IMG/VR virus record: IMGVR_UViG_3300020112_000969
Location: 7,438 to 71,437 of that record
Reading direction: 5' to 3' (one strand)
Length of the DNA stretch: 64,000 nt
Source: a virus
Shown: piece after piece, positions 10,443 to 60,467 of the stretch
Position numbering within the stretch: the stretch's first letter is position 1
How the letters are laid out: every line of letters starts with the position of its first letter
Notes under the pieces: generated by a model
Seen by the model: only the letters and a program-made list of their open reading frames with translations
Database searches by the model: none
What the model was told of the DNA's origin: nothing
Made by a program: the position numbers and the translations under genes

Positions 10443-10637
10443 TTATAGCGTCAGCATATCCGACTCGATATAGCTGACATCATTTAACGCGAAGCACTCA
10501 GACTCTCCTCTTGCAAACACATAAATACCAGCACCTTCGTCTTGTCCGACAAGGCACATACCGCCGCAGAGAAGCTTCTTCTTTGCTTCCTCGTTAAACA
10601 CATAAATAAAAGGCTTCATTGATTTCCCTTCTTTCAC
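10443..10637 (-). CDS. hypothetical small protein
   Basis: ORF track; 64 aa. Confidence 0.25.
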   Translation of the reverse strand: MKEGKSMKPFIYVFNEEAKKKLLCGGMCLVGQDEGAGIYVFARGESECFALNDVSYIESDMLTL

Positions 10638-23369: not shown

Positions 23370-24419
23370 TTACATCGCCCTCGCGCTCTCATCCTCTCTT
23401 TCTGTCACAGAGCTGTCTACGAGGTAGTTGTGCGTCTTGCTGCCAAGGTTCAGATTACGATAGGCTTCCTCAATCTCTTCTCTTGTAATGCCGATGTAAT
23501 CCAGTGTCTGAGCAGCGGAGCTGTGTCCCATGGCTTTCTGAAGAAGCAGAAGCTTTCTCGGATCGTTGTTGCTCATCACCATCTGGTGATACGCCCATGT
23601 CTTACGAAGCGAGTGCGTGGAAAGCTTCATCGTCAAATCAAGCTCCTTCGCAAGCGAGCGGAGCATATGATCCACTCCCTGTCTCGATACAGGTTCGTTC
23701 TTATTGGAGCCTCTGTTGCTCTCAGAGCGGAACATATAGTCGCTCAGTTTCACGTTCTTCGTATTCTCCAGATACAGCGTCACAGCTTCAACGATAGCCG
23801 TATTGATTGTCAGATATCTGTTCTTGCGATGGGTTCTGGTGTTCTTCGTCTTCTGCTCTAAAACGGGAAAGCTGTCCTTGAATGTGTAGTTGTCATTGAT
23901 AAGATTACAGAAGCGAAGCACTCTCAAGTCGCTGATGCGAAGTCCAAGGTTTATACCAACGATAAAAAGCATATTGTCGCGGTAGCGACCGTTACGCTTC
24001 ATGTAATCAGATATGCGCTCGATTTCATCCATATCCTTGATAGGCTCAGCAGCGTGATCTACTGCAAGCTCCTGCGTAACAACTTCCTCAGACGGAGCAA
24101 TCAATCCAGACTTCAGCTTTCTGCATTCCTTCTGGATGGATCTCACGTCAATGTAGCTTTCTTTCTCTCCGCCGGCAAGGGAAGCTCCCGCTTCCATACT
24201 GCCGGACGAACGCTCTTCCGCAGCTTTCTTTTCGTACTCTTTTTCAGAATATATCTCCGTTCCTTTTACCAAGGATCTGCAGCCTGTGCCATTCGCACCT
24301 TTACTTGTCTGGCTGGTAACCTTTACCTCTTCAGCTCTCTTGTCTTGCCGAAGGAAAGCTCCCGCTTTCATGTTCTCTCCCGCTATTCCTTTTCTGTTAA
24401 AATCCAGAGTGATGACCAT
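23370..24419 (-). CDS. int: tyrosine integrase
   Basis: C-terminal HSLRKTWAYHQ...LLQKAMGHSSAAQTLDYIGI (HxxR...H...Y). Start at ATG 24419 with RBS AAAGGAG. Confidence 0.75.
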   Translation of the reverse strand: MVITLDFNRKGIAGENMKAGAFLRQDKRAEEVKVTSQTSKGANGTGCRSLVKGTEIYSEKEYEKKAAEERSSGSMEAGASLAGGEKESYIDVRSIQKECRKLKSGLIAPSEEVVTQELAVDHAAEPIKDMDEIERISDYMKRNGRYRDNMLFIVGINLGLRISDLRVLRFCNLINDNYTFKDSFPVLEQKTKNTRTHRKNRYLTINTAIVEAVTLYLENTKNVKLSDYMFRSESNRGSNKNEPVSRQGVDHMLRSLAKELDLTMKLSTHSLRKTWAYHQMVMSNNDPRKLLLLQKAMGHSSAAQTLDYIGITREEIEEAYRNLNLGSKTHNYLVDSSVTEREDESARAM

Positions 24420-24854
24420 ATCGTATCTCCTTTGCTGTACGCTTCGCCGTAAGACGATCAATGACAGAAGAACCATCGCAGTTCATATATCTTCTCGCCC
24501 AGTATTCTTTCTCTGGCTGCTTATCTATACCAACCAGAAGAGGAACCGCATCTTGAACTATCTATCATTCCACTGTATCAGATGCAACCTAAAAGCAACC
24601 TCAAAGCAGCTAACATTGTTTCAGCGTACCATATATCTGTTATGTATCCGAAGCATCTCTATTTGCTCTTTTCAGAACTGTCTCCCTTCCCAATGTAAGA
24701 GCTGAGACGCCGCACTTATCGTTCCAATGTTTATATTTACATTATAACAGATTTTGTGCGAATTGCAAGTATTATTTGCAATTTCTTTGTTATTTTTTCA
24801 CAAATTCTTCAAAAACAATATCTTTCTTTTTGACAGCGGTTATTGCCGATATAT

Positions 24855-32514: not shown

Positions 32515-33159
32515 TTGATGGCAGTAAAAATTAACATCCAGCCGAATGAAGTGTGGCAGTTCTACAAAGCCAACTCTGCTCGGCTGAAGAACAGCATGGT
32601 TCCAATCGCCGAAGATGACAAGCGGAAAATCAAGCTGTGTCTCACTGACGGGTATGACTACCCGCGCATTGTCCTCGTAGAGTCCTCAACCGGGAAAATT
32701 ATCGAAGCGTCAACGAAATACATGGAGTCGAGCTGCTGCGAATATGTTTCCGACTCGATCTTTGCGAACATGAAAACGGTCGCAGAGGACAAGAAAGATG
32801 CGTCTATCGCAGAAAAAGAGCTTCCTGAGCAGGAAAATATAGACGATCTGGTCAATTCCATGGTCAGCGAAAATACGTCGAAAGATGCAGGCAAAGATGA
32901 AGAGGCAGAAGATGAACAAGGCGAAGAAAACGACAGAGAAATCGAACTTTACGCATCGTTCTTACAATTTCTTGCCACAGTTTGTGATACTGACATTGAC
33001 GACATTGAAACCTGCTTTGACGCCGATGACATCGGAAATACATACGAGGATGTGCTTGAATTTCTTGCCGTTGAACACGGTATCATGATCCGCAGACCTA
33101 TTGTTACGGATGACGGAGAGGTTATTGAATACCCATATGACGGCGTGTTTGAAAGATAA
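32515..33159 (+). CDS. hypothetical acidic protein
   Basis: ORF track; 214 aa; RBS AAAGGATGG. Confidence 0.4.
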   Translation: MMAVKINIQPNEVWQFYKANSARLKNSMVPIAEDDKRKIKLCLTDGYDYPRIVLVESSTGKIIEASTKYMESSCCEYVSDSIFANMKTVAEDKKDASIAEKELPEQENIDDLVNSMVSENTSKDAGKDEEAEDEQGEENDREIELYASFLQFLATVCDTDIDDIETCFDADDIGNTYEDVLEFLAVEHGIMIRRPIVTDDGEVIEYPYDGVFER

Positions 33160-33496: not shown

Positions 33497-34135
33497 ATGA
33501 CAAATGAAAAAATGACAATCCATCAGGCTCTTTGTGAGCTGAAAATTCTCGACTCACGCATTGGCAACGAAATCCGGTCTGGTCAGTTTGTCGGAACGAC
33601 AAAGCACGCTGCTCAGAAAGTTGGTTCTCAGACGGTTCGTGACTTCAGCGAAAACGCCAAGGCGTCCATGGATAAGATCAACGACCTGATTGCACGCTAC
33701 AACGCAATCAAAAAGGCTGTTGTCCTGTCCAATGCAACAACAAAGGTTCGCGTCGGTGACGAAGAATATTCCGTCGCGGAGGCGATTGCCATGAAAAACC
33801 ACGGCATGGACTACTACAAAGCTCTTTACAACGCCGTCAGCTTCCAGCTTAACAGAGCTGATATGAATGTCAAGGCAGAAAACGACACTCTTGAGGCAAA
33901 GGCGGACAGCTATGTCCAGAGTACGTACGGAAACAAGGATAACAAGGGAAACTCTGCTGAGATTGCTCAGGTTCGCGCCTCCTATATGGAGCCTCTCGTA
34001 GTGGAAATCGTTGACCCCGTCAACGCCCGAGAGTTTATCAAGCAGCTCAACGACAAGTTTGACACATTCTCCGCATCCGTTGACTCCGCAATCTCCGTAA
34101 GCAACGCAATCACGGAAATCGAAATTAGCTACTAA
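33497..34135 (+). CDS. hypothetical protein
   Basis: ORF track; RBS AAGGAGAAAA. Confidence 0.4.
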   Translation: MTNEKMTIHQALCELKILDSRIGNEIRSGQFVGTTKHAAQKVGSQTVRDFSENAKASMDKINDLIARYNAIKKAVVLSNATTKVRVGDEEYSVAEAIAMKNHGMDYYKALYNAVSFQLNRADMNVKAENDTLEAKADSYVQSTYGNKDNKGNSAEIAQVRASYMEPLVVEIVDPVNAREFIKQLNDKFDTFSASVDSAISVSNAITEIEISY

Positions 34136-34253: not shown

Positions 34254-34324
34254 GGCAGAATAGTCAAATGGTAAAGACGCTGGTATAAAAACCGGTAATG
34301 TCGGTTCGATTCCGACTTCCGCCG
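34254..34324 (+). ncRNA. degenerate tRNA-like element (non-canonical anticodon loop of 6 or 8 nt)
   Basis: Good T arm GTCGG-TTCGATT-CCGAC and a 6/7-bp acceptor pairing, but a 3-bp D stem and a non-7-nt anticodon loop. Either a tRNA pseudogene or a non-canonical tRNA. Confidence 0.2.
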
Positions 34325-34621
34325 CTACAGAAGATTTATGATTGCGATAATTTGACTGATTATCAAATATTGCCTCACTTTACGGGAAGAATTTCTCGTG
34401 CCATCTTAAATCTTAAAACTTACGTTCAGTGCTCAATACTTAACCATTAACACTCCAAACATTCTTCAACCGTCAACAATAAACGCATAAGAAATAAAGC
34501 TTTACAAAACCCGGGAAACAAGGTTTGCGCGTGTCTTATTTTAGCGCAAGGTAATCCTCCCGGTTGCATCGTAGCGATTGTTTTTATATATAACGAAGCC
34601 GGCTTACGTCCGGCTTCATAT

Positions 34622-34688
34622 CCAAGTGTAGCTCAGATGGTAGAGCAGCCGTGACGGCTCGTCGCAGGTTCAAGTCCTGCCGCTTGGC
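34622..34688 (+). ncRNA. tRNA-like element with truncated anticodon arm (5-bp stem, 3-nt loop)
   Basis: Acceptor CCAAGTG/CGCTTGG, D arm GCTC-AGATGGTA-GAGC and T arm GCAGG-TTCAAGT-CCTGC are canonical. The anticodon arm is the AGCCG-tga-CGGCT hairpin, four nt shorter than canonical. Confidence 0.3.
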
Positions 34689-35653: not shown

Positions 35654-36568
35654 ATGAAATTTGTTATGCCAAACGCGGTCTTGATTGACGAAAAAGACCC
35701 GTTTAAGAAGATTGAACTCGCAGGGAGAACCTGCTATAAGTCGGAAGCAAAAATCACACCAGACAGTGCAAAAACATTTGTCGGAAATATGATTGGGCGC
35801 GGTCATACGGCAATGCTTGAACATTGCGTATTCACATTCATGATCTATCCGAAAGATGGGAACCTTGAATTCTTTGAGGATATGTCGAAATACGCGTTAC
35901 ATATCAAAACGGATAAATACATCATTGTTACGAAGCATAAGGATCGCATTCTCGCTTCTGCGAACCTTCGTGCGATCTGCCAGCGCGGAGAAAACGATCC
36001 GATCTTCCGCGCCGTACAGAACATATACCCATCTCTTGCGTACGGTAACGCCTTGATCAGCGCCAGTTCGTTTGAGAATGTGTGCGCAGAAATTGTCAAT
36101 ATCAACGACATCAATGATTTGACGGACTTTGAAAAAGACGCACATACATATTACACATTCCGCATCACAACAGACCGCGGAGTTACACACGAGCTTGTTC
36201 GTCATCGTCCTGTTTCTTATGCTCAGGAAAGCACCAGATATGTAAACTATCGAGACGGACTTTCCATCTCCTTCCCTGCGCAGTATGAGGAAAAAGATAG
36301 CTGCGTTCAGGCTGAATATGAGAGAGCTTTCTGCGACGCAGAAACACACTATCAGAGACTTATCGAGATGGGTGAAAAGCCACAGCAGGCTCGCGCAGTC
36401 CTTCCGAACGCTCTCAAGACAGAAATTGTTGTTACAACAAATCTTGCTGAGTGGAAACACATTCTTGATCTTCGTTACTTCGGCACAACAGGAGCACCTC
36501 ACCCTGACATCAAAGAAGTAATGAGGTTCGTATGCGAGGTAGTCACAAATGGGAACAGAGAGCATTAA
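35654..36568 (+). CDS. thyX: flavin-dependent thymidylate synthase
   Basis: ThyX signature RHRPVSYAQESTRY (RHRx7-8S); 304 aa. Confidence 0.8.
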   Translation: MKFVMPNAVLIDEKDPFKKIELAGRTCYKSEAKITPDSAKTFVGNMIGRGHTAMLEHCVFTFMIYPKDGNLEFFEDMSKYALHIKTDKYIIVTKHKDRILASANLRAICQRGENDPIFRAVQNIYPSLAYGNALISASSFENVCAEIVNINDINDLTDFEKDAHTYYTFRITTDRGVTHELVRHRPVSYAQESTRYVNYRDGLSISFPAQYEEKDSCVQAEYERAFCDAETHYQRLIEMGEKPQQARAVLPNALKTEIVVTTNLAEWKHILDLRYFGTTGAPHPDIKEVMRFVCEVVTNGNREH

Positions 36569-36902
36569 ATCAGACTTCCACGTCGGAGATGTCGTTATGG
36601 TGTCAGAAAAAGCGCATATGTACAGCATAGATTATAAACTGCGCGGAAAATACGGCATCGTAATGAGCGACACTGAAGACGAGACATGGTACGACTGTGT
36701 CGCTGTTTGTTTCAGTGGAAATGTAGAAAAAGTTGAACTTCGTAGCATGAACACACACTTCTGCGAATTCAATGGTCGAGAATTTACAAAAAACGGTAGT
36801 GGGCAATGGGTCGATCCGTCTGAGCTTTTGCTTATTGAAAAAGCTCAAGAAGAAGTCGTCTCAGATCCTGATATTGACAACGCTCTTTCTTCCCTGCTGT
36901 AG
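36549..36902 (+). CDS. small protein, member C of the C-terminal-tail family (..DPDIDNALSSLL)
   Basis: ORF track; 117 aa. Confidence 0.45.
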   Translation: MGTESIKSDFHVGDVVMVSEKAHMYSIDYKLRGKYGIVMSDTEDETWYDCVAVCFSGNVEKVELRSMNTHFCEFNGREFTKNGSGQWVDPSELLLIEKAQEEVVSDPDIDNALSSLL

Positions 36903-36916
36903 ATTTGAGGTGGAAA

Positions 36917-37210
36917 ATGGATCTTCAAGAAGCAATCGAACTTGTATGTCTCGGAGAGCTTGCAATCCTTGTTGAGACAAAAGAGGAAAAACAACTAATT
37001 ATGGATTCTTGCGATCGACCAAATGGAATTCGAGCATCTACATATTCAACTTATAAGTATGCGGTAAGAGACGCTCTTTCCAGCGGACAGAAAATCACTT
37101 TTTCTCAGGATCCGAGTTCAAGAAAAGTCGTCAAGGCAAAGGATCTCGTCGAGAGCGAGGATAGATTTGTGGATCCTGACATTAACGCCGTTCTATCATC
37201 GCTTATTTAG
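36917..37210 (+). CDS. small protein, member D of the C-terminal-tail family (..DPDINAVLSSLI)
   Basis: RBS GAGGTGG then ATG at 36917; in frame with track ORF 36905..37210. Confidence 0.45.
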   Translation: MDLQEAIELVCLGELAILVETKEEKQLIMDSCDRPNGIRASTYSTYKYAVRDALSSGQKITFSQDPSSRKVVKAKDLVESEDRFVDPDINAVLSSLI

Positions 37211-37317: not shown

Positions 37318-37716
37318 ATGGCAAAGATCACTGTAGCAGGCGACGCTATCGTCGTCACTTCCTCCATCAAGTTCGAGGACATCAAGACTATCGCGAAGTA
37401 TCGCCCCGAGAAGCTGACCCTGATGGGCGGCAAAGATGGTAAGGAACCCGTTTTCGCTCTCGGTGTCACCTCCGGCAGCGGCAGCATCAACGAGTTCGGC
37501 GCTTCCTTCGGTCGCGAGACCAACAACGCGGACAAGCTCGCTACCATGACTCTCGTCTGCAGCGGCATCGTCGGCGATGTCAAGGAGTATGTCGCCGACA
37601 AGATCGGCGGCGCTCTCGCCAAGCTGAACGCTCTCGAAGCTACCCTCCCCGATGTCCTTGCTGAGATTGCCGCCGCTAAGGGCGCTATCATGGACAGCAT
37701 CACTGTGATGCAGTAA
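37318..37716 (+). CDS. hypothetical protein upstream of the Ubl operon
   Basis: ORF track; strong RBS AAAAGGAG. Confidence 0.4.
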   Translation: MAKITVAGDAIVVTSSIKFEDIKTIAKYRPEKLTLMGGKDGKEPVFALGVTSGSGSINEFGASFGRETNNADKLATMTLVCSGIVGDVKEYVADKIGGALAKLNALEATLPDVLAEIAAAKGAIMDSITVMQ

Positions 37717-37823
37717 GCGAACATATCGGAGAAATTGAATTGTGGCGGCGTATGGTTTTCCATATCGCCGCCATAGTCATTTCAAAACAACAACAATTTT
37801 TTGAATAAAAGGAGATACATATC

Positions 37824-38051
37824 ATGATTAAGGTAACTGTTGGTAACAACGTCAAGCGCGAGTCCGTCATCATCGACGAGAACAGCACCCTCCGTTCCTG
37901 CCTCGAGGCAAACGGCATCGACTATACCCGCGGCCAGATCCACCTGGACGGCGCCTCCCTCAAGCCGGGCGATCTCGACAAGAAGTTCTCCGAGTTCGGC
38001 ATCACTGAGAAGTGCTTCCTGCTGAACGTCGCGAAGCAGGATAACGCATGA
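37824..38051 (+). CDS. ubiquitin-like beta-grasp protein candidate (ThiS/MoaD-size; Gly59 followed by a 16-aa tail)
   Basis: 75 aa; MIKVTV start typical of ThiS/MoaD; strong RBS AAAAGGAGATACAT. Gene order with the JAB and E1 ORFs downstream. Confidence 0.4.
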   Translation: MIKVTVGNNVKRESVIIDENSTLRSCLEANGIDYTRGQIHLDGASLKPGDLDKKFSEFGITEKCFLLNVAKQDNA

Positions 38052-38156
38052 TTTCACAAGTCAGCGCCGCTTGGCGCTGACATATCCGGGTGACGGGTAT
38101 TGTCAGTTCAACTCTGACCGCCCGGTCTATTTACCATTCCATCATTTATAAAAGGG

Positions 38157-39689
38157 GTGTTCATTGTGTTTAAGCAAGCCGTCCATTCGACTGCGCTTAC
38201 GAGTAATGTTGCAAATGATTTCTTCCGTAACATTACAGGAGAATACTTCTCCGGAGATGTGTCATTCGTCTCCTCTATGCGCGCTCTTCTTCATTCCCGC
38301 ATGAAAGATGATGACAACATTCATCTTTCCTTCCATCGTTCCTATTGCGACCACGATCTCACAGAAGATGAAAAGAAAAACATCGTAAAGGTCGTCACAA
38401 AGGACTGGTTTGTTCCGGATAATGGAAACCAGTTCTGCATTTGTTCTGTTCGTTGCACGGACGGAGAGGGATCTTCTGTGTTCGACGGAATTGACGGTTC
38501 GTTTGTATCATCGTTCCACGACTATGAGCGCATCGAAAACATCACGAGCGCATATCGCAAACTCTTCCATGTGTCATGCTTTGTAAACAAGAAGATCAGA
38601 ACGACGGTGCTTTTTGTCGAGAATCTTTCTCTTCGCCGTTATCACTATCTGCAGGCAAGCATTCTTGCAGCAGTACCATGGTACTACGACAACAAGGTCT
38701 GCCCTCCGAACGATCTTGAGCTTGAATTGATCAAGTCCACCAGCGATACGGAGTCCGAGCAGAAGTATGTGTCCTGCATTGAAAAGATTGCAGAGAAATT
38801 CGACTTCAGATCCGGAAGAATCCGCAGTATGCTCAAGGGATTTGAAAATAAGTTTTATTATGAGGAGAAGAAGCGTGTCGCCGATCAGATTTCGAGCAAC
38901 AACAGCTCTATTATCTCCTACAATAACGAGATCGGAAGTCTCCTTAAAAAGGTCGCTGAACTTGAAGTAAAGATGATTGGTCTTGAGGCAAAGACAAATG
39001 ACACAGATGGAGACTCTGAAATCATGGAGTATTTCCTTGCCAACAAGCGTCTCATTCTGGAAACCGTAAGCGAAAACAATCTCGACTTCGCTGTCAAAGA
39101 TTATATCACATACTTTGATGAGGACATGGCAAAGCGTGTGATCAAGAACAGGAGCAGCTATGTGTATTTGCCGCACGGCAGAGACAGAAGCGGCGTTATC
39201 TCCGTCGATGATATAAAGCTCCTTATGACGGCGATCTTTGTCGATCAGAAGCTTCGTATTCGAACCTGCGCGGCATACCGTCTCAAGATGAACGGCAATG
39301 TAAGCCCGTTCACAGGACATTCTTTTGACTCTTCCTGCAACAGTTATATGCCGAACCCGCATATTGACCGCTTCCAGTGTATGGGCAATTATACACGCAC
39401 TGTCAATGAGCTGTTGATAAAGCATGACTATGTAGGCGCTATTGAACAGTGTATTGCAAGTGCAAAGAGCCTCAACTTCGGCGACAGCGCCGTTATGACA
39501 GAGTTTATGGAAACTGTATACGGTGTCAGCAGCCGCGGCTATACAAACAACTGTATCGAGCTTCCTGATGGAAGCGTCACAGATCCTTCCGGAGCAATCC
39601 AGTGGCTCAAGGAAAACAGCAAGGAAAAGGAGAAGCCCGATGAAAAGAGCAAAAAGACAAAAGAGAAAGGAAGCGCAGCAGATGTCTAA
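38157..39689 (+). CDS. large Cys-containing protein between Ubl and JAB (E2-like role unproven)
   Basis: GTG start after AAAAGGGG; 510 aa. C-terminal MPNPHIDRFQCMGNY is only loosely UBC-like (no HPN-x8-C). Confidence 0.4.
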   Translation: MFIVFKQAVHSTALTSNVANDFFRNITGEYFSGDVSFVSSMRALLHSRMKDDDNIHLSFHRSYCDHDLTEDEKKNIVKVVTKDWFVPDNGNQFCICSVRCTDGEGSSVFDGIDGSFVSSFHDYERIENITSAYRKLFHVSCFVNKKIRTTVLFVENLSLRRYHYLQASILAAVPWYYDNKVCPPNDLELELIKSTSDTESEQKYVSCIEKIAEKFDFRSGRIRSMLKGFENKFYYEEKKRVADQISSNNSSIISYNNEIGSLLKKVAELEVKMIGLEAKTNDTDGDSEIMEYFLANKRLILETVSENNLDFAVKDYITYFDEDMAKRVIKNRSSYVYLPHGRDRSGVISVDDIKLLMTAIFVDQKLRIRTCAAYRLKMNGNVSPFTGHSFDSSCNSYMPNPHIDRFQCMGNYTRTVNELLIKHDYVGAIEQCIASAKSLNFGDSAVMTEFMETVYGVSSRGYTNNCIELPDGSVTDPSGAIQWLKENSKEKEKPDEKSKKTKEKGSAADV

Positions 39690-40515
39690 GTATATGAGAT
39701 TTACACCGGAGATCTTAAAGAAGCTCCGCGAGGACTTTGAGCAGTCTCTGAAGCTATCAAGCATTTCTGACGGGAAATTCAATTTCACAAAGACCTTTGA
39801 CGCGCCGACAGAAAAGGCGCGTCTTTACTTTACCGCAACGGCATGGACAAAGACGCTGATCCTCGTCAAGAACTTCGATAAGGAAGTTGCATGGCACGGT
39901 CTTTGCGAGCGTGTTGAGGGTGAGGAAAATGCATTCCGCGTCTACGATATTATCGTCTACCCGCAGGAAGTAACCGGCGCTACTGTCAACACAGATCAGG
40001 TCGCATATCAGACGTGGCTCATGGGGCTGGAAGACGAAGTGTTTTCCAACGTCCGCTTCCAAGGTCATTCCCATGTCAACATGGGCGTCTCCCCTTCCGT
40101 AACGGATATCAACAATCAGGGGAAAATCATCGAGCAGCTTGAGGGTGATATGTTCTATGTGTTCATGATCATCAACAAGTCTCTTACACACTATGTCTCG
40201 ATCTATGACTCGGCAAAGAACATCGTCTATGAAAACGGAGATGTATCCGTCATGCTCGACGGAGCAGGAGTTGACCTCGATGAGTTCATGAAGAACTCCA
40301 AGAGTGTTGTCAAGGAAAAGACCTATACAACTCCTTATTATCAGACGCCGTACGACCGCTCCACTCCGTACGACAATCGAAAGATCGAGGAGTTTGACAA
40401 GAGCTGGAAGCAGCCAGGGAAAAAGAAGAAAAAGGTCATAAACGCAGACGAAACATCTGGTTCCGACGCGTACGATGACGATGACAATCCGTATAGCGCG
40501 TTCGGATACGCGTAA
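39640..40515 (+). CDS. JAB/MPN (JAMM) metalloprotease
   Basis: Exact JAMM motif HSHVNMGVSPSVTD (HxHx7Sx2D) with upstream Glu. Start ATG 39640 after AAGGAGAAG; overlaps the upstream ORF by about 50 nt. Confidence 0.65.
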   Translation: MKRAKRQKRKEAQQMSKYMRFTPEILKKLREDFEQSLKLSSISDGKFNFTKTFDAPTEKARLYFTATAWTKTLILVKNFDKEVAWHGLCERVEGEENAFRVYDIIVYPQEVTGATVNTDQVAYQTWLMGLEDEVFSNVRFQGHSHVNMGVSPSVTDINNQGKIIEQLEGDMFYVFMIINKSLTHYVSIYDSAKNIVYENGDVSVMLDGAGVDLDEFMKNSKSVVKEKTYTTPYYQTPYDRSTPYDNRKIEEFDKSWKQPGKKKKKVINADETSGSDAYDDDDNPYSAFGYA

Positions 40516-40536
40516 TGATAACAGGGGTGATATGAA

Positions 40537-41214
40537 ATGAGCATGGATTTGTCAAAAAGCTATGAATACTTCCAGCCCGAAAAGCTGGATGGACGCGTAC
40601 ATATCATCGGCTGCGGAAGTGTCGGCAGCACGCTCGCAGAAAATCTCGCACGCTGCGGTGTCACAAAGATGACACTTTGGGACTTCGATGTGGTCGAGCC
40701 TCATAACATCGTTAACCAGATGTTCCGGCAGCAGGACTTCGGTCATAAAAAGGTCGAGGCACTTCGTGATATCCTCATGGAAATTGATCCTGACATCACG
40801 AACGATCTTGAGGTGAAAGAGGATGGATGGCGAGGAGAAATACTCTCTGGCTATATCTTCCTGTGTATTGATAACATTGAGCTTCGACGCAAGTTTGTGG
40901 AAAATCACTTTGAGTCTCCGTATGTAAAGGCAGTGTTCGACTTTAGAACCGGTCTTGAAGATGCGCAGCACTATGCAGCAGACTGGAGCAACCACAAGAT
41001 GAAAGAGGATCTGCTTGCTTCCATGCAGTTTTCTCATGACGAAGCAAAAGAAGAAACGCCTGTTTCCGTCTGTGGAATTACGCTTGGTGTGTGTCCTACT
41101 GTGCGAGTGATCTGCGCATACGGCGTGTCGAATTTCATCAATTTTGTGCGTGGGAAGGAGCTTAAAAAGCTGCTCCTTGCGAACGCGTTCACATTTGATA
41201 CGATTGCGTTTTGA
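40537..41214 (+). CDS. E1-like activating enzyme (ThiF/MoeB/HesA family)
   Basis: HIIGCGSVGSTLAENLARCGVTKMTLWDFDVVEPHNIVNQ: Rossmann GxGxxG plus the D.D.VE.SNLNRQ-type motif. Confidence 0.7.
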   Translation: MSMDLSKSYEYFQPEKLDGRVHIIGCGSVGSTLAENLARCGVTKMTLWDFDVVEPHNIVNQMFRQQDFGHKKVEALRDILMEIDPDITNDLEVKEDGWRGEILSGYIFLCIDNIELRRKFVENHFESPYVKAVFDFRTGLEDAQHYAADWSNHKMKEDLLASMQFSHDEAKEETPVSVCGITLGVCPTVRVICAYGVSNFINFVRGKELKKLLLANAFTFDTIAF

Positions 41215-41247: not shown

Positions 41248-42075
41248 TTGGAGTGTACGATTGATCGCCTGAGCATCGGCACAAGGATTTATTTCGGCAA
41301 GTACTCGCCGAACGAAGGAGTTGTCCCACCTGCAGCAATCAGGTGGATTAAGGTATCTGCTGAGAACGATATGTTATCGGAGTGCGTTCTCGGTAAGTTC
41401 CCGTTTGATGCGTCCGAAAGCGACGACAGAAGAGCTTCTGTATACAATCTCGGAAATAGAAATTATGCGGAGTCAAACATTTTTTCCTTCCTCAACTCAA
41501 AGGAAGATGAGTGGTTCCAGCCTATGAATGCAAACGATCGCCCGCCGATTGACAGAAACATTGCATGCGCTCGTTATTACTGGAGAGGTGCAAGCCGTGT
41601 GGACGAATTTGCAAAGCACGCAGGGTTCCTAAAGAATTTTCATGACTACGAAATCAACAGCGTCATTTCTGACATCAATTTACCGTCTAAAGATGAGATC
41701 ATGAGCTGGCCGTACTTTAAGAGAAACGGCAAGAGGCCGCATCCGACCGCCGAATATATTCGTCTTTATTCGGAAGATGAGTTGAACAGTGATTGTTTCT
41801 GCGATTTCTGGCTTAGAACCACTGACATGATCCATAAGGAAGAGGCAATGCTGTTTGCGAGAAACGGTCAGTTTTCACATGAGTATCCATATCATGCCCG
41901 TGGAATTCGCCCTACATGCCGCCTGTCTGCGTCTACTGTTGTGGAAAGCACAGACGACGGTGTCTTTGTAATCAAAAAATCGAACGGAACAAGAAGTGAC
42001 CGTCGAGATAAAGAAGAAGCAGCAGCGAACATATGCGACCTGTTCTCTGCGCTCGGTTTAGGCAGCTCCGATTAA
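41248..42075 (+). CDS. hypothetical protein (possibly lectin/FGE-like; function unknown)
   Basis: ORF track; 275 aa. Its stop immediately abuts the first copy of the conserved repeat module. Confidence 0.4.
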   Translation: MECTIDRLSIGTRIYFGKYSPNEGVVPPAAIRWIKVSAENDMLSECVLGKFPFDASESDDRRASVYNLGNRNYAESNIFSFLNSKEDEWFQPMNANDRPPIDRNIACARYYWRGASRVDEFAKHAGFLKNFHDYEINSVISDINLPSKDEIMSWPYFKRNGKRPHPTAEYIRLYSEDELNSDCFCDFWLRTTDMIHKEEAMLFARNGQFSHEYPYHARGIRPTCRLSASTVVESTDDGVFVIKKSNGTRSDRRDKEEAAANICDLFSALGLGSSD

Positions 42076-42439
42076 AAGCTGCTACGTAACGATATTTCTT
42101 TTGCATTTTTGTAAAAGAGCTTCCGCGTTCCGCGAAAGTATCCATTTGTCCCGAGGAAGAAGATGAGAGGCAGCTCAGAATGCGCATCCCAAGTCGACTC
42201 CGTCCAATCACTGGATGAATTCCAGGGATCCGCCTTCGAGCCGGCACGCGTCCCGGTCAACTGCCACACAACACCTACGCCTGCTGCGCAATGCGCCACC
42301 AAGGCCGAACTCGCGAACAACACCTCCCAACAGCTATACTATATAGCTAATGCTGCAGGTGCCCATCTCCCTCCTCCAGGCCGTTAACTCTATTTAGGTT
42401 ACGGAAATCTTTCAATCAATCAAGAAAGGAGAACCAACG
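42076..42439 (+). ncRNA. candidate retron non-coding RNA (msr/msd-like) element 1
   Basis: Non-coding; begins with the 74-bp conserved module; bounded by inverted repeats CGTAAC (about 42085) and GTTACG (about 42398); internal hairpins such as AGCTATA-cta-TATAGCT. Lies directly upstream of the retron-type RT. Confidence 0.3.
42089..42162 (+). repeat. conserved 74-bp module, copy 1 (100 percent identical to copy 3)
   Basis: gatatttcttttgcatttttgtaaaagagcttccgcgttccgcgaaagtatccatttgtcccgaggaagaag; contains the tandem TTCCGCG TTCCGCG. Confidence 0.7.
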
Positions 42440-43579
42440 ATGGTATATGTAACGCTTCGGCAATCCCCTCAGTACCGCCAGATATCAATGGAAGAGCTTC
42501 TGTTTGGGGATAATACCAGTACATTTATCAATGGCAACGAAACCAATACGAGAACCTATGTTGTTGAGCGCCCAAGCGAACGGCTTATGCGCAGCATTGA
42601 TACCGCAGCGCTCACACGCTGCCTAATGGAATTTAATCAGAGGACAGCACCTCTTCGCGAGAAAAAGCGTTCTGAACTTTATTATACATTCTATATCCCG
42701 AAGCATTCCGGCGGTCTTCGGCGTATCGATGCGCCAAATGAAGAGCTTATGACTGCTCTTCGCGAGCTGAAGATGATTTTTGAGACGAAGTTTCATGCGC
42801 TTTGCCATACCAACGCATTTGCTTATATCAAAAACCGCAGCACGATCGACGCTGTCAAAAAGCATCAGAAAAACGAGAGCCGTTGGTTTGCGAAGTATGA
42901 CCTTCACAACTTTTTCGGTTCAACTACGCTGAAGTATGTTTCAAAAATGTTTTCCATGGTGTTCCCGTTTTCTGAACTAATGAAATATCCTGCAGGAAAG
43001 GCAGAGCTGGAAACGGCTCTGTCTCTTTGTTTTCTAAACGGACATCTTCCGCAGGGAACACCAATCTCCCCTCTCATTACAAATATTATGATGATCCCGT
43101 TTGACCATGCGCTTAGCAAGAAGCTTCACGAGGAAGGAGAACAGAATTTTGTCGTTACCAGATATGCAGACGACTTTATCATCTCTTCGCGCTACAGCTT
43201 CCGGTTCCGCGGCGTTGAGCAAACGATCAAGGATACGCTGAAGTCATTCGGCGCTCCGTTTAACATCAATTCAGAAAAGACGCGTTACGGTTCCGTTACT
43301 GGAAGCAACTGGAACCTTGGCGTCATGCTCAATAAGGATAACGAAATTACGATCGGATGCGAAAAGCACAGGCAGTATCGCTCTATGCTTTTCCACTATG
43401 CAGAAGATAAAAAGAAAGGAATTTCGTGGCCGATTGAGGACGTCATGATGATGAGGGGAATTTTATCCTATTGGCGCATGGTCGAGGGTGACCAACCAGT
43501 TAACGAGTGCGCCGCATCTATCAGTAGGAAAACAGGGGTTAATGTCTTGCGAGCAATCAAAGACGACCTCCGTTCCTAA
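42440..43579 (+). CDS. reverse transcriptase, retron-type
   Basis: RT motifs YYTFYIPKHSGGLRRIDAP (domain 1), RSTIDAVKKH (retron-like), DLHNFFGST, LPQGTPISPLITN, RYADDFIIS (YADD), then VTG after motif C. 379 aa with no maturase or endonuclease domain. Confidence 0.7.
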   Translation: MVYVTLRQSPQYRQISMEELLFGDNTSTFINGNETNTRTYVVERPSERLMRSIDTAALTRCLMEFNQRTAPLREKKRSELYYTFYIPKHSGGLRRIDAPNEELMTALRELKMIFETKFHALCHTNAFAYIKNRSTIDAVKKHQKNESRWFAKYDLHNFFGSTTLKYVSKMFSMVFPFSELMKYPAGKAELETALSLCFLNGHLPQGTPISPLITNIMMIPFDHALSKKLHEEGEQNFVVTRYADDFIISSRYSFRFRGVEQTIKDTLKSFGAPFNINSEKTRYGSVTGSNWNLGVMLNKDNEITIGCEKHRQYRSMLFHYAEDKKKGISWPIEDVMMMRGILSYWRMVEGDQPVNECAASISRKTGVNVLRAIKDDLRS

Positions 43580-43585
43580 TATAAT

Positions 43586-43882
43586 AAGCCTGTAATGATA
43601 TTTCTGATTTATCAGAGCTTCCGCGTTCCGCGAAAGTAACCATTTGCTCCGAGAAAGATGTACAGAAGGAACGCCAGCGGGCCCGTATCCGCGCTGCCAC
43701 TCAGTGTAGGAATTCTCGCATCGCCTGATCATAGGCGCCAACGACAGAACCGAGCGCTTGCAGCGCAACGGAATCCGCGCGCGAAAGTACATGTCATCCG
43801 GAGAAAGCTGAGCAGTCGATTGCTGGAGCTTAGTTTCCACACGACGACTAACCGTCAGCAGCTCAGAGCACATCCTATTCAA
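43586..43882 (+). ncRNA. candidate non-coding element 2 (diverged module), bounded by 11-bp perfect inverted repeat AAGCCTGTAAT / ATTACAGGCTT
   Basis: Starts right after the RT stop. Diverged conserved module at 43597..43668, then a GC-rich variable part with an internal partial copy (CGCGAAAGTA). No ORF. Confidence 0.25.
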
Positions 43883-43887
43883 TTACA

Positions 43888-44236
43888 GGCTTATCTCTTT
43901 CCAGCGATATTTCTTTTGCATTTTTGTAAAAGAGCTTCCGCGTTCCGCGAAAGTATCCATTTGTCCCGAGGAAGAAGGGATGGAAGAGAACCAGAAGACA
44001 CTCTTCCAGCGAGCTTTAACCTACACGAGAAGCTCGTGAACCTTGGCCGTCCAAAATAACCGATTGGTCAACTGTCATACACATTGTGTCTCAACGCTTC
44101 AGACAGGTTATCCCTTCAGGGTCTCGGTGCACTGCATCTCTTAACCCTGCAGCTTACCTAACCCTCCAGATTTAATCGCTCTAAACTTGAGACTATCCTC
44201 AGGAACTTCAGAGTACCCATTCTCTTTGGCTGGAAA
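43888..44236 (+). ncRNA. candidate non-coding element 3 (module copy 3 at 43896..43969), bounded by inverted repeat TTTCCAGC / GCTGGAAA
   Basis: 74-bp module identical to copy 1, followed by a different about 260-bp variable part. No ORF. Confidence 0.25.
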
Positions 44237-58727: not shown

Positions 58728-59322
58728 TCAGAGAAAGCTTTATATTGCCGACTGGCATTACGGGCACAAAAATGCGATCGCGTTTGATAACCGTCCGTTT
58801 TCCAATACGGATGATATGGATGCAGAGCTTGTGCGCCGCTGGAATGAAGCGGTGCGTCCGTGCGACAGCGTCTATGTCATCGGTGATATGTTCTGGTGCA
58901 CAGAGGACAAGGCGCTCCCGATTCTCAAGGAGCTCAACGGGCAGAAGTTTCTGATACGCGGCAATCACGACAGGAACAACAACAGCAAATTTATCCACCA
59001 GTTTGCTAAGGTAAGCGGGTATATGGAGGTAGATGATAACGGGAACCGTATCGTTCTGTGCCACTACCCTATCCCATGCTTCAAGAACCATATGTACGGT
59101 TGGTATCACTTCTATGGCCATGTCCATACATCTCTTGAGTGGAACATCACGCAAAAGTGCATATCCGACCTGATCGCTACGGAAAACGCGCCGTGCAACG
59201 CAATCAATGTCGGCGCGATGATGCCGTATATGGACTATACACCACGCACCTTTGAAGAAATCGCCGCGCATATCCCTCAGTTTGTCAAGATTGACTACGG
59301 AAAGGAAGATGATGTCACATGA
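58714..59322 (+). CDS. metallophosphoesterase (YfcE-like)
   Basis: Motifs DWHYGH, GDMF, GNHD, GHVH. Confidence 0.6.
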   Translation: MMSTDQRKLYIADWHYGHKNAIAFDNRPFSNTDDMDAELVRRWNEAVRPCDSVYVIGDMFWCTEDKALPILKELNGQKFLIRGNHDRNNNSKFIHQFAKVSGYMEVDDNGNRIVLCHYPIPCFKNHMYGWYHFYGHVHTSLEWNITQKCISDLIATENAPCNAINVGAMMPYMDYTPRTFEEIAAHIPQFVKIDYGKEDDVT

Positions 59323-60467
59323 TCTACTTAGACAGCGCTGCCACAACGAAGATGTCTGACAGCGTTTTAGATGCCATGCTCCCATACTTAAAAGAGCAGT
59401 ATGGAAATCCGGGCACGATGTACAGCATCGGCAGAGATGCAGCAAAGGCTGTGGAGCGTGCACGAAATCAAGTCGCTTCTTTCTTTCGTGCAAAGCCGGA
59501 GAACATCATCTTCACCTCCGGCGGCAGTGAAGGAAACAGCATGGTCATTGGAAGCTACGGAATGAACGGAGGAATTTCCGCTTCATACACCGGTCATGAT
59601 AGTGCGCTTTTTGCAGCAGGATATTGCACGGAGTTAGAGCGGCTCACGCTGATATCTCCCGGCACAGACGGATGCATCGGCGCGGAAGAGGTCAATGAGT
59701 CACTCGATGGAAAAACAGAGCTTGTGTCAGTTGAGTATGTCAACAACGAGACTGGCGTGCAGAACGATATTGAATCGATTGGCAGGCTATGCCGTGAAAA
59801 AGATATCCGTCTCCACTGCGACTGCGTGCAGGCGGCTGGAAATCTGAAGCTCGACATGGAAAAGCTTCCGATCGACTACGCTACGATATCTGCTCATAAG
59901 ATACACGGCCCGAAGGGTGTCGGTGCGCTCTATGCAAGAAACCGCGATGCACTATCGTCCATCGTATTTGGCGGTCTGCATCAGGAATACGGACTGCGCG
60001 GCGGCACGGAAAATGTCGCCGGCATCGTCGGTCTCGGGCAAGCGTGCGAGGAAGCTGACAGAGATATGCACGACAATATTTTGAAAATTTCTCTTATGAA
60101 ACAAGGTTTTTGTGCGAATCTTTGCCGTGCGTTTGAAAAGGACAATTTCAGCGGAACCGGCATCACGCCGAATTTCGGCAGCCACTTTACACCGGGCAAA
60201 ATTCTTTCCCTCTCCATTGACGGCGTGTATGCGCAGTCGCTTGTCCTGATGATGGACGCTCTCGGAATCTGCATCAGCGCAGGAAGTGCGTGTCATTCAC
60301 AGGAGGATACGCCGAGCCGTGTTTTGAAGGAATGCGGCTTTGACGATATGCGTGCAAGGTCTACTGTGCGCATCTCTTTTGACCCAAGCAACACAGAAGA
60401 AGAAATCAAACAGGCAGCCGCCGCGATGGCAGGCTGCATTACAACTCTCAGATCGCAAACAGCATAA
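59319..60467 (+). CDS. cysteine desulfurase (NifS/IscS-like, class V aminotransferase)
   Basis: YLDSAATT; SAHKIHGPKGVGALY (PLP Lys); SAGSACHS active-site Cys loop. Confidence 0.8.
   Translation: MIYLDSAATTKMSDSVLDAMLPYLKEQYGNPGTMYSIGRDAAKAVERARNQVASFFRAKPENIIFTSGGSEGNSMVIGSYGMNGGISASYTGHDSALFAAGYCTELERLTLISPGTDGCIGAEEVNESLDGKTELVSVEYVNNETGVQNDIESIGRLCREKDIRLHCDCVQAAGNLKLDMEKLPIDYATISAHKIHGPKGVGALYARNRDALSSIVFGGLHQEYGLRGGTENVAGIVGLGQACEEADRDMHDNILKISLMKQGFCANLCRAFEKDNFSGTGITPNFGSHFTPGKILSLSIDGVYAQSLVLMMDALGICISAGSACHSQEDTPSRVLKECGFDDMRARSTVRISFDPSNTEEEIKQAAAAMAGCITTLRSQTA

What the first reader, a model, noticed from the sequence alone, without database searches (positions are those of the whole stretch)
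37824..41214. Phage-borne ubiquitin-like conjugation operon: beta-grasp Ubl, large Cys protein, JAB/MPN protease, E1 (Bil-like gene order)
Four co-directional, tightly spaced genes: 37824..38051, 38157..39689, 39640..40515 and 40537..41214. The first is a 75-aa protein of ThiS/MoaD size and MIKVTV start. The third has an exact JAMM motif (HSHVNMGVSPSVTD). The fourth has the ThiF/MoeB/E1 Rossmann and nucleotide-binding motifs. The order Ubl, X, JAB, E1 matches bilA-bilB-bilC-bilD of Bil-type ubiquitin-like antiviral systems, but here it sits in a phage accessory region next to a retron. Two features are non-canonical. The Ubl has no C-terminal Gly-Gly; Gly59 (..SEFG) is followed by a 16-aa tail, suggesting JAB processing. 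The 510-aa middle protein has only a loose UBC-like motif (NPHIDRFQC), so the E2 is not confidently identified and may be novel. An alternative is a sulfur-carrier (ThiS/MoaD-E1-JAB) pathway, notable because the same phage encodes a NifS-like cysteine desulfurase at 59319..60467 and a tRNA cluster.
Basis: partly seen in the sequence, partly recalled or inferred. Interest (0 to 1): 0.85.

Follow-up and report, generated by a model that had tools for sequence, protein, structure and literature searches.

The report
Phage ubiquitin-like tagging module with retron
A large, undescribed group of gut-bacterial phages carries a conserved gene block for a small ubiquitin-like protein, the enzymes that would trim, activate and probably attach it, and a reverse transcriptase with two or three structured RNAs, so these viruses may run their own protein-tagging system.

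The parts
37318..37716 (+). p132: 132-aa protein of unknown fold, obligate neighbour of the Ubl; candidate partner or target
   Evidence: Present next to the Ubl in 68 of 70 RT-anchored loci and in nearly all X-anchored loci. Fused in-frame to the Ubl in L068/L069. Duplicated together with the Ubl in L001-L003. Codon bias GC3 0.76 against 0.51-0.62 for the enzyme genes. No Pfam, PHROG, NCBIfam or PDB sequence match. K3, K27 and K42 are at least 90% conserved.
37824..38051 (+). Ubl: 75-aa beta-grasp protein with invariant flexible tail VKADNA
   Evidence: AF2 pLDDT 89.9, topology b-b-a-b-b-(3-10)-b, tail residues 70-75. Foldseek matches ubiquitin, SUMO, NEDD8, BilA (8tyx_A) and TtuB at prob 1.00, TM 0.6-0.73. 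469 homologs in the search; the 120 listed are 73-100% identical and almost all exactly 75 aa. Terminal Asn-Ala is kept even at 38-50% identity. GC3 0.84. The L160 ortholog scores ThiS Pfam E 4.6e-4.
38166..39689 (+). X: 507-aa two-domain protein (N domain 1-228, long helix 229-281, C domain 285-491), putative E2-like carrier with Cys408
39682..40515 (+). JAB/MPN+ (JAMM) metallopeptidase, 277 aa, with N-terminal extension and low-complexity C-terminal tail
   Evidence: E68, H129-S-H131, S139 and D142 invariant. PADLOC JAB 1.1e-4. Profile against the PDB hits only JAMM proteins (Rpn11 0.055, JAMM1 0.21) with the motif in register. The L160 ortholog scores Prok-JAB 0.0077.
40537..41214 (+). Minimal E1 (ThiF-type adenylation domain, 225 aa) with invariant Cys179
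   Evidence: Pfam ThiF 5e-22. Profile hits Uba1, UBA5, UBA6, MoeB, MccB, Cap2 and ThiF over residues 10-123. GCGSVGS, DFD, K72 and D112 are invariant; TPVS-x-C179 is invariant. The canonical Arg of NL.RQ is an invariant Asn60. 57-78% identity across the family.
41248..42075 (+). DUF6273 protein, an optional insert between E1 and the retron (present in about half of loci); probably not a core part
   Evidence: Pfam DUF6273 2e-5, PHROG Hoc-like 2.5e-12. Present in 34 of 70 RT-anchored loci.
42070..42417 (+). Retron-like ncRNA unit 1 (a1/a2 closing stem, conserved G at 42091, two 5' hairpins, about 250-nt variable body)
   Evidence: Repeat family D1. Core motif 3 copies against 0 expected. MFE fold pairs 42085-42090 with 42398-42403. 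Hairpin 2 covariation.
42440..43579 (+). Retron-type reverse transcriptase, 379 aa
   Evidence: NCBIfam retron St85 family 1.6e-51 (175 bits, below the 235 cutoff), PADLOC RT_II-A 7.5e-45, Pfam RVT_1 1.5e-19. Always downstream of E1 in related loci.
43584..43894 (+). Retron-like ncRNA unit 2 (perfect 13-bp a1/a2: 43584-43596 with 43882-43894; G at 43597)
43898..44236 (+). Retron-like ncRNA unit 3 (a1 43898-43905 with a2 44229-44236; G at 43906; 5' module 100% identical to unit 1 over 73 nt)

Best explanation
This is a phage-encoded, non-canonical ubiquitin-like protein conjugation module. Shown by computation: a very highly conserved, codon-optimised 75-aa beta-grasp protein (Ubl) with a flexible tail that always ends in Asn-Ala; an intact JAMM/MPN+ metallopeptidase; and a minimal ThiF-type E1. 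Inferred mechanism: where the Ubl is made with extra residues (1-3 residues, or a whole p132 protein fused behind it), the JAB peptidase cuts after the ...DNA motif to release the mature tail. It could also reverse conjugates. The E1 homodimer adenylates the terminal carboxylate (most likely Ala75) and takes the Ubl onto Cys179 as a thioester. The Ubl then passes to Cys408 of the 507-aa protein X, whose C-terminal domain resembles the UBC/RWD fold, with His402 and Asn/Gln400 nearby. From there it goes onto lysines of target proteins. The abundant co-expressed p132 is the leading candidate for partner or target. The module is inherited as one block with a retron-type RT and two or three msr/msd-like RNAs, so the two are probably functionally coupled. 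The likely arena is phage-host or phage-phage conflict in these integrase-carrying phages of gut Clostridia. That biological role is a guess.
For: Ubl fold and tail. Pro-forms and fusion: DNA+A, +R, +LN, +LAA and the 206-aa Ubl-p132 ORF, identical in two metagenome assemblies. JAB active site. E1. Precedent for E1 activation of a C-terminal Ala: E. cloacae CD-NTase ...GRFA-AMP in Cap2 (10.1101/2022.03.31.486616). Precedent for JAB trimming of a single terminal Ala: BilA G97-A98 (PMC10557695). X as an E2-like fold: plus invariant His/Cys and an order of secondary-structure elements a-b-b-(insert)-b-b-loop(PN.H...C)-a-a-a. Co-inheritance: 74 X-anchored loci; 70 of 70 RT-anchored loci have E1 and 66 of 70 have all four genes; a 24%-identity relative keeps the order, while the window's three immediately upstream genes (ThyX, p117, p101) and most downstream genes tested have no match in the related loci. 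High expression of Ubl and p132: GC3 0.84 and 0.76.
Confidence: 0.6

Rival explanations
1. E1-dependent C-terminal chemistry without protein conjugation. The JAB removes Ala75 (and any extension) to expose the invariant Asn74. The E1 then acts like MccB on a C-terminal Asn, or otherwise adenylates the tail, to make a nucleotidylated, cyclised or small-molecule-linked Ubl. X is a scaffold or a different enzyme, not an E2.
For: Asn74 and Ala75 are both invariant, and every natural extension begins after Ala75, which fits equally well with Ala75 being the P1' residue of a cut after Asn74. MccB and PaaA are among the E1 relatives found. BilA is activated only after a single terminal Ala is removed. 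X has no sequence-level similarity to E2s.
Confidence: 0.15
2. The Ubl and p132 are abundant non-enzymatic proteins (for example structural, DNA- or msDNA-binding, or assembly chaperones, like the lambda TAPI Ubl). The JAB merely matures them and the E1 has a separate role. The block is syntenic but not a conjugation pathway.
For: Extreme conservation, codon bias and strong ribosome-binding sites of the p132 and Ubl genes. L073 keeps p132, Ubl and RT without JAB, E1 or an intact X. Phage tail-assembly Ubl plus JAB pairs are a known theme (PMC1779556).
Against: The genes lie in the non-structural arm, far from terminase and portal. An E1 with invariant nucleotide-binding residues and Cys is co-inherited in 70 of 70 loci. 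An invariant flexible tail is typical of an activated modifier.
Confidence: 0.12
3. Sulfur-carrier pathway (ThiS/MoaD/TtuB-like): the E1 thiocarboxylates the Ubl for thio-cofactor or tRNA thiolation, using the phage NifS-like desulfurase.
For: ThiF-type E1 whose best NCBIfam hits are ThiF/MoeB. TtuB is among the structural matches. The L160 Ubl nearly reaches the ThiS Pfam threshold. A NifS-like gene is in the window and sits next to the RT in L073.
Against: No C-terminal Gly-Gly in any ortholog. No rhodanese or other sulfurtransferase domain in the block. NifS lies within the 10-kb flanks in only one related locus, and that locus lacks the E1. All ThiF/MoeB hits are far below curated cutoffs.
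Confidence: 0.04
4. The Ubl module and the retron are two independent systems that merely sit side by side in a conserved part of this phage lineage's genome.
For: No known retron type uses E1, JAB or Ubl partners. An optional gene (DUF6273) and, in L147, about 6.5 kb can separate E1 from the RT. All loci come from one broad phage lineage.
Against: Linkage holds from both anchors and at 24-27% identity of X, while the genes immediately flanking the block in the window are mostly not conserved in the related loci. The partial-loss locus L073 still keeps p132-Ubl next to the RT. This rival concerns only the coupling and is compatible with the main explanation for the Ubl genes.
Confidence: 0.4

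Closest known systems
BilABCD (bacterial ISG15-like) antiphage ubiquitination systems, especially type II (E. aridi)
   Same: Gene order Ubl - E2-like - JAB - E1. Single beta-grasp Ubl. A JAB that pre-processes the Ubl, in Bil by removing one terminal Ala. Separate E1 and E2 genes. BilB and BilA appear among the structural matches.
   Different: Encoded by phages rather than host defence islands. The reactive tail ends Asn-Ala, not Gly. The E1 is a 225-aa single adenylation domain without the IAD and mobile CYS domain of BilD. The E2 candidate is a 507-aa two-domain protein with a long helix, against about 134-170 aa. An extra obligate 132-aa partner and a linked retron. No curated profile match.
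Type II CBASS Cap2 (E1-E2 fusion) and Cap3 (JAB)
   Same: The E1's best defence-library hits are Cap2-type E1-E2 models (PADLOC 4.7e-19; NCBIfam 6A-MBL cap2_3 1.7e-19). Cap2 can activate a C-terminal Ala. A JAB partner is present.
   Different: E1 and the E2 candidate are separate proteins. The conjugated moiety is a dedicated beta-grasp Ubl rather than a CD-NTase. No CD-NTase domain was detected in the block genes scanned against Pfam.
ThiS/MoaD/TtuB sulfur carriers with ThiF/MoeB E1 and JAB (CysO-Mec+, QbsE-QbsD type)
   Same: Small beta-grasp protein, minimal homodimer-type E1 of about 225-250 aa, and a JAB peptidase that trims C-terminal extensions.
   Different: No Gly-Gly terminus and no linked sulfurtransferase. 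There is an additional Cys-bearing UBC/RWD-like protein.
Retrons (RT + msr/msd ncRNA + effector)
   Same: RT most similar to retron RTs. ncRNA units have a1/a2 inverted repeats, a conserved G immediately after a1, and 5' hairpins with covariation.
   Different: Two or three ncRNA units per RT, one upstream and one or two downstream. Carried by large integrase-bearing phages. The neighbouring conserved genes are a Ubl/E1/JAB set, which no described retron type has. The VTG signature is not conserved. The RT scores below NCBIfam's retron cutoff.
Ubiquitin fusion precursors (eukaryotic Ub-ribosomal protein fusions; bacterial BubAB)
   Same: One lineage encodes the Ubl fused head-to-tail to its neighbour p132, implying proteolytic release. 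Bub operons likewise cleave a Ubl-E2 fusion (PMC11601596).
   Different: The fusion partner is an uncharacterised 132-aa protein. The fusion was seen in only one lineage.

Membership tests
Ubiquitin-like beta-grasp modifiers | Beta-grasp fold (b-b-a-b-b-b) with a flexible C-terminal tail | tested here: met
   AF2 pLDDT 89.9; strands 2-8, 12-17, 38-41, 63-69, helix 23-29, tail 70-75. Foldseek prob 1.00 to ubiquitin, SUMO, NEDD8, BilA and TtuB.
Ubiquitin-like beta-grasp modifiers | Reactive C-terminal Gly (Gly-Gly), native or exposed by processing | tested here: not met
   The tail is ...K-[A/T/M]-[D/H/A]-N-A in all orthologs, down to 38% identity.
BilABCD | E1 (BilD) with inactive plus active adenylation domains and a mobile Cys domain (about 500 aa) | tested here: not met
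   225 aa with a single ThiF domain; architecture of BilD taken from PMC10557695.
BilABCD | UBC-fold E2 (BilB) with catalytic Cys | tested here: inconclusive
BilABCD | JAB deubiquitinase with intact JAMM site | tested here: met
   E68, H129, H131, S139 and D142 invariant; only JAMM proteins hit in the PDB.
BilABCD / other named defence systems | Match to curated defence-system profiles for all components | tested here: not met
   PADLOC: only generic JAB (1e-4) and CBASS-type E1-E2 models for the E1; nothing for the Ubl, X or p132. NCBIfam: nothing for four of the five proteins.
E1 / ThiF superfamily | Rossmann-type adenylation domain above the Pfam threshold, with GxGxxG, the acidic residue after strand 2, and the conserved Lys and Asp | tested here: met
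   PF00899 78.6 bits against a 28.1 cutoff; G25-C-G27-x-x-G30, D49-F-D51, K72 and D112 invariant.
E1 / ThiF superfamily | Arg of the N-L-x-R-Q motif (ATP phosphate contact) | tested here: not met
   HNLANQ: Asn60 is invariant where Uba1 has NLNRQ.
E1 / ThiF superfamily | Catalytic Cys in or after the crossover loop | tested here: inconclusive
   Cys179 in TPVS-x-C is invariant, but HMM alignments to solved E1s stop at about residue 123. The correspondence to UBA5 Cys250 and MoeB Cys187 is by eye only.
UBC/E2 superfamily | HPN motif about 8 residues before the catalytic Cys | tested here: inconclusive
   M-P399-N400-x-H402-...-C408 has the same Asn-to-Cys spacing that I recall for UbcH5 (own knowledge). 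The His is displaced, and Asn is Gln in L091.
UBC/E2 superfamily | Sequence-profile membership (UQ_con or Prok-E2 families) | tested here: not met
   No Pfam hit at E<=1 on isolated C-domains; hhalign probability 0.05%.
ThiS/MoaD sulfur carriers | Gly-Gly terminus and a linked sulfurtransferase or desulfurase | tested here: not met
   no GG; NifS-like gene within the flanks only in L073.
PRTRC cassette (ParB-related, ThiF-related) | Matches to the TIGR PRTRC protein A-F models | tested here: not met
   Only PRTRC_ThiF at 23.4 bits against a 144.75 cutoff; no hit for the other proteins.
Retron | RT of the retron clade | tested here: inconclusive
   Best NCBIfam model is retron St85 at 1.6e-51 but 175 bits against a 235 cutoff; PADLOC RT_II-A 7.5e-45.
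Retron | ncRNA closed by a1/a2 inverted repeats with a conserved G right after a1 (branching G) | tested here: met
   Exact a1/a2 of >=9 nt in 99 of 180 units against 9 of 180 shuffled; a1 ends just before the invariant G of TGYAAYG. Feature definition from PMC8632793.
Retron | VTG signature in RT motif 7 | tested here: not met
   The family consensus there is N-W-x-L-G-x-M-x-N. The window has an incidental VTG a few residues upstream that is not conserved. The position was assigned by eye.
Retron | Production of msDNA | not testable with these tools
   Needs nucleic-acid extraction from infected or lysogenic cells.

The most novel reading that the evidence does not exclude
The whole block is one machine: a phage-borne retron whose effector arm is a ubiquitin-like conjugation cascade, or the reverse, a Ubl system whose activity is gated by two or three different msDNAs. 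Reverse-transcribed DNA would then control covalent protein tagging through an unprecedented Asn-Ala-terminated modifier and a new E2-like family.
Probability: 0.25. Interest if true: 0.92.

Novelty: new variant of a known kind. Interest (0 to 1): 0.8.

Why it matters
Ubiquitin-like conjugation in prokaryotes is so far known from host antiphage systems (Bil, type II CBASS, Bub) and archaeal pathways. Here the machinery is carried by the viruses themselves, in a very large and diverse family: more than 2,000 clusters at 50% identity for the E2-like protein, found in gut and rumen Clostridia phages. It has a modifier tail (Asn-Ala) that departs from the Gly rule, a minimal E1, and an unnamed two-domain E2 candidate. 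If the biochemistry holds, it widens what counts as a Ubl/E1/E2 system and gives a tractable minimal cascade. If the linkage to the multi-RNA retron is functional, it would define a new retron type and a first connection between reverse-transcribed DNA and protein tagging. It would also raise the question of what phages tag: host defences, rival phages or their own proteins.

Tried and rejected
1. Megablast of the block against 50,697 deposited phages found nothing. A tblastn with X found a single 24%-identity hit.
2. NCBIfam, Pfam, PADLOC and PHROGs gave no hit for the Ubl, X or p132. The weak EAD11 (E 0.013-0.046) and DUF2604 (E 0.018) hits were treated as noise.
The run carried a stray '-glob 0' option, so local mode was not used and this negative is weak.
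4. Foldseek of X against the PDB had a best E of 0.11. AFDB50 was unavailable.
5. The X profile against PDB sequences returned nothing relevant. The p132 profile against the PDB returned nothing.
6. The E1 homolog search was saturated by the same family, so no outgroup contexts were obtained. The exhaustive X search likewise listed almost only full-length family members.
7. PRTRC membership was rejected.
8. NifS linkage: the single-sequence viral scan was too insensitive, with one hit. A direct tblastn in 90 sources showed NifS only in L073.
9. The idea that the hairpins after the p132 and Ubl genes are intrinsic terminators was rejected: the scan found no T-tract terminators or sigma-70 promoters.
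10. Rfam, at gathering or E<=1 thresholds, found nothing for the RT-flanking RNAs.


Full report
OBSERVATION

The four co-directional ORFs exist. Ortholog alignments correct two starts. The middle gene begins at the GTG at 38166 (MFKQAV..., 507 aa, identical to database protein P0001). The JAB gene begins at the ATG at 39682 (MSKYMRF..., overlapping the preceding stop).

The window is a phage. It has a terminase large subunit (12155-13963, minus strand), a portal (10634-12145, minus strand), an integrase (23370-24476, minus strand) and an exonuclease. No deposited phage resembles the block at the DNA level.

THE FOUR PROTEINS

Ubl (37824-38051). The homology search returned 469 homologs. The 120 listed are 73-100% identical to the window protein and almost all exactly 75 aa, whereas the neighbouring 507-aa protein is only 41-47% identical across comparable phages. 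AlphaFold2 predicts, with pLDDT 89.9, strands at 2-8, 12-17, 38-41 and 63-69, a helix at 23-29 and a disordered tail at 70-75. Foldseek matches ubiquitin, SUMO, NEDD8, the bacterial Bil Ubl (8tyx_A) and the sulfur carrier TtuB at probability 1.00. The beta-grasp claim is therefore confirmed.

JAB (39682-40515). Sequence searches are weak: PADLOC JAB 1.1e-4, and Prok-JAB 0.0077 for a divergent ortholog. A family profile hits only JAMM proteins in the PDB (Rpn11 0.055, JAMM1 0.21), with HsHvnmgvsPsgvD aligned to HSHPGFGCWLSSVD. E68, H129, H131, S139 and D142 are invariant. I accept it as an active MPN+ peptidase.

E1 (40537-41214). It matches Pfam ThiF at 5e-22. A family profile aligns residues 10-123 with Uba1, UBA5, UBA6, MoeB, TcdA, MccB, Cap2 and ThiF. 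GCGSVGS, DFD, K72 and D112 are invariant, as is Cys179 in TPVS-x-C. There are two caveats. The Arg of the NL.RQ motif is an invariant Asn. The C-terminal half could not be aligned to solved E1s, so the equivalence of Cys179 to known catalytic cysteines is inference.

X (38166-39689). It has no hit in Pfam, NCBIfam, PADLOC or PHROGs. An exhaustive profile search finds 2,262 representatives at the 50%-identity cluster level with E<=1e-3, and 992 with E<=1e-30. The 150 listed are essentially all full-length, about 460-570 aa apart from one 383-aa N-terminally truncated entry. The AF2 model is confident (pLDDT 89.4): an N-terminal alpha/beta domain (1-228), a 50-residue helix (229-281) and a C-terminal alpha/beta domain (285-491).

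The C-domain order is helix, two strands, a two-helix insert, two strands, a loop, then three helices. The loop carries the invariant P399-N400-x-H402-I403-x4-C408-x-G410. From my own knowledge, the Asn-to-Cys spacing of 8 equals that of the HPN...Cys motif of UbcH5. His402 and Cys408 persist in orthologs only 24-27% identical, but the Asn is Gln in one of them.

Against the E2 reading: Foldseek (best E 0.11), hhalign against an E2 profile and an HMM search of PDB sequences are all negative. X also has other invariant cysteines that could bind metal. I rate 'E2-like carrier' as probable, about 0.6-0.7, and not established.

THE C-TERMINUS AND PROCESSING

The tail NVVKADNA is invariant in close relatives. 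In the most divergent orthologs it reads VVKADNA, IRKTDNA, IVKTHNA, QKMDNA and PHKANA, so only the terminal Asn-Ala is universal.

Several orthologs carry extra, variable residues after it: +A (L006, L039, L071, P0181), +R (L052), +LN (P0221) and +LAA (L091). In L068 and L069 the Ubl is fused in-frame, with no stop, to the p132 homolog. This gives a 206-aa ORF that is identical in two independent metagenome assemblies.

This is the pattern of ubiquitin precursors, and it implies a peptidase that cuts at the DNA motif. The co-encoded JAB is the obvious candidate. In E. aridi, BilA is unreactive until its JAB removes a single terminal Ala (PMC10557695). A bacterial E1 can activate a C-terminal Ala, as shown by the CdnD ...GRFA-AMP adduct in Cap2 (10.1101/2022.03.31.486616).

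The data do not decide whether the mature end is Ala75 (my preference) or Asn74. If Asn74, Ala75 would be the P1' residue. That ambiguity is the basis of the main biochemical rival, MccB-like chemistry on a terminal Asn.

THE UNIT IS LARGER THAN FOUR GENES

The upstream 132-aa gene (37318-37716) accompanies the Ubl almost everywhere. It is duplicated together with the Ubl in L001-L003, is swapped and fused with it in L068/L069, and shares its strong codon bias. GC3 is 0.76 for p132 and 0.84 for the Ubl, against 0.51-0.62 for the enzyme genes. It matches nothing known.

Across 74 loci found through X, the order p132-Ubl-X-JAB-(p185)-E1-(DUF6273)-RT is almost invariant. The window's three immediately upstream genes (ThyX, p117, p101) match none of those loci, and most downstream genes tested match none or only three. 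Two genes further upstream (32515-33159 and 33497-34135) do recur, in 39 and 34 sources, so part of the wider neighbourhood is shared.

Searching from the RT side, 70 of 70 loci with enough upstream sequence carry the E1, and 66 of 70 carry the Ubl, X, JAB and E1. The exceptions are most simply explained by a contig end, an apparent insertion that moves the module further upstream, or divergence beyond the tblastn threshold.

A 35-kb faecal phage contig whose X is only 24% identical (MT835544.1) keeps the whole order. So does L160, at 27% identity.

One locus, L073, has lost JAB and E1 and most of X but keeps p132, the Ubl and the RT. This cautions that the Ubl/p132 pair may also have a role that needs no conjugation.

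Hosts, judged from MAG labels, are gut and rumen Clostridia: Oscillospiraceae, Acutalibacteraceae, Ruminococcus and Lachnospiraceae. Contigs are typically 60-140 kb, and some relatives carry YonO-type RNA polymerase genes.

THE RETRON

A 73-nt element occurs three times around the RT, at 42090-42162, 43588-43660 and 43905-43977. Its core is found 3 times against 0 expected by chance. An iterative nucleotide HMM finds it in 85 of 90 sources, as 3 copies in 55 and 2 copies in 23. In the eight loci and the window that I printed, one copy lies upstream of the RT and the rest just downstream.

The consensus is a TGYAAYG box, a variable hairpin, a second hairpin GCUUC...GAAGU, then AACAAYUUGA. In the second hairpin, 6 of 8 pairs show compensatory double changes. 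Of all cells, 97.8% are paired, against 82.5% in shuffles and 33-56% when the partner is slid. Sixty-eight cells show double changes against 17.6 expected.

Each unit of about 290 nt is closed by inverted repeats whose 5' arm ends exactly before the invariant G of the box. Exact complements of at least 9 nt occur in 99 of 180 units against 9 of 180 shuffled. This is the retron msr/msd layout, with a1/a2 repeats and a branching G (feature as described in PMC8632793).

The RT is most similar to retron RTs but scores below NCBIfam's cutoff, and the VTG signature is not conserved. Rfam has no match. Neither the RT review nor full-text searches link retrons to ThiF, JAB or ubiquitin-like genes.

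REJECTED OR WEAKENED IDEAS

- Sulfur carrier: no Gly-Gly, no rhodanese, and NifS is unlinked.
- Bil membership: the E1 architecture and the tail differ, and there are no profile hits.
- PRTRC: no matches.
- The hairpins after the p132 and Ubl genes are not canonical terminators.

VERDICT

Three of the four assignments are confirmed, and the fourth is probable. The module is a new variant of prokaryotic Ubl conjugation. It is phage-encoded, has an Asn-Ala tail, a minimal E1, a new E2-like family and an obligate 132-aa partner, and it is co-inherited with a multi-RNA retron-like element. The steps from E1 to X to target, and any coupling to the retron, are inferred. The biological role is unknown.

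Noticed in passing
window 42070-42417, 43584-43894, 43898-44236 (around the RT at 42440-43579): Three retron-like msr/msd units per RT, each with an a1/a2 closing stem, a conserved G after a1 and two 5' hairpins; the second hairpin has strong covariation. There is no Rfam family for it. Related phages have 2-3 units.
   Followed up: yes
L068 6462-7082 and L069 6443-7063: Natural in-frame fusion of the Ubl to the p132 homolog (206 aa), identical in two metagenome assemblies. In these loci the Ubl precedes p132, the reverse of the usual order.
   Followed up: yes
L001 9120-9831 and 17269-17980 (also L002, L003): The p132+Ubl gene pair occurs twice, once before X and again downstream of the RT, encoding identical Ubl proteins. 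It is unclear whether this is a real duplication or an assembly repeat.
   Followed up: no
L073 9182-13546: Partial-loss variant. p132, a diverged Ubl (ending THNA) and the RT (with a long N-terminal extension, 469 aa) are kept. X is reduced to an 81-aa remnant, and JAB and E1 are absent. A NifS-like class-V aminotransferase directly follows the RT.
   Followed up: partly
L004 12471-13028 and homologs: A 185-aa protein family with no Pfam match sits between JAB and E1 in about 20 loci and a few kb downstream of the RT in most others. The window has no copy. It may be a further, movable component.
   Followed up: partly
window 36549-36902 and 36905-37210; L091 1928-2188, 2198-2443, 9511-9714, 9724-9993: Several small proteins flanking the module end in similar C-terminal tails: ...ALSSLL and ...VLSSLI in the window, and ...C-x-C-x-SLL in the distant phage. 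This looks like a recurring small-protein family with a conserved C-terminus near a C-terminus-activating system.
   Followed up: no
window 34254-34325 and 34622-34688: The tRNA cluster has oddities. ARAGORN calls one tRNA with an undetermined, two-base anticodon. Rfam finds a fifth tRNA at 34622-34688 that ARAGORN does not report.
   Followed up: no
window 40537-41214, residue 60: The E1 family has an invariant Asn where E1/ThiF/MoeB enzymes have the Arg of the NL.RQ motif. Either another residue takes over ATP binding or the chemistry differs.
   Followed up: partly
L004 15603-16244 and 9 further loci: An RNase H1 gene (Cauli_VI + RNase_H domains) directly follows the RT and its RNAs in a subset of the phages, consistent with processing of an RNA-DNA hybrid product.
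   Followed up: no
window 37716-37823 and 38051-38165: GC-rich perfect hairpins (GGCGGCG...CGCCGCC; GTCAGCGCC...GGCGCTGAC) follow the p132 and Ubl genes but lack T-tracts. They were not called as terminators, and their function is unknown.
   Followed up: partly
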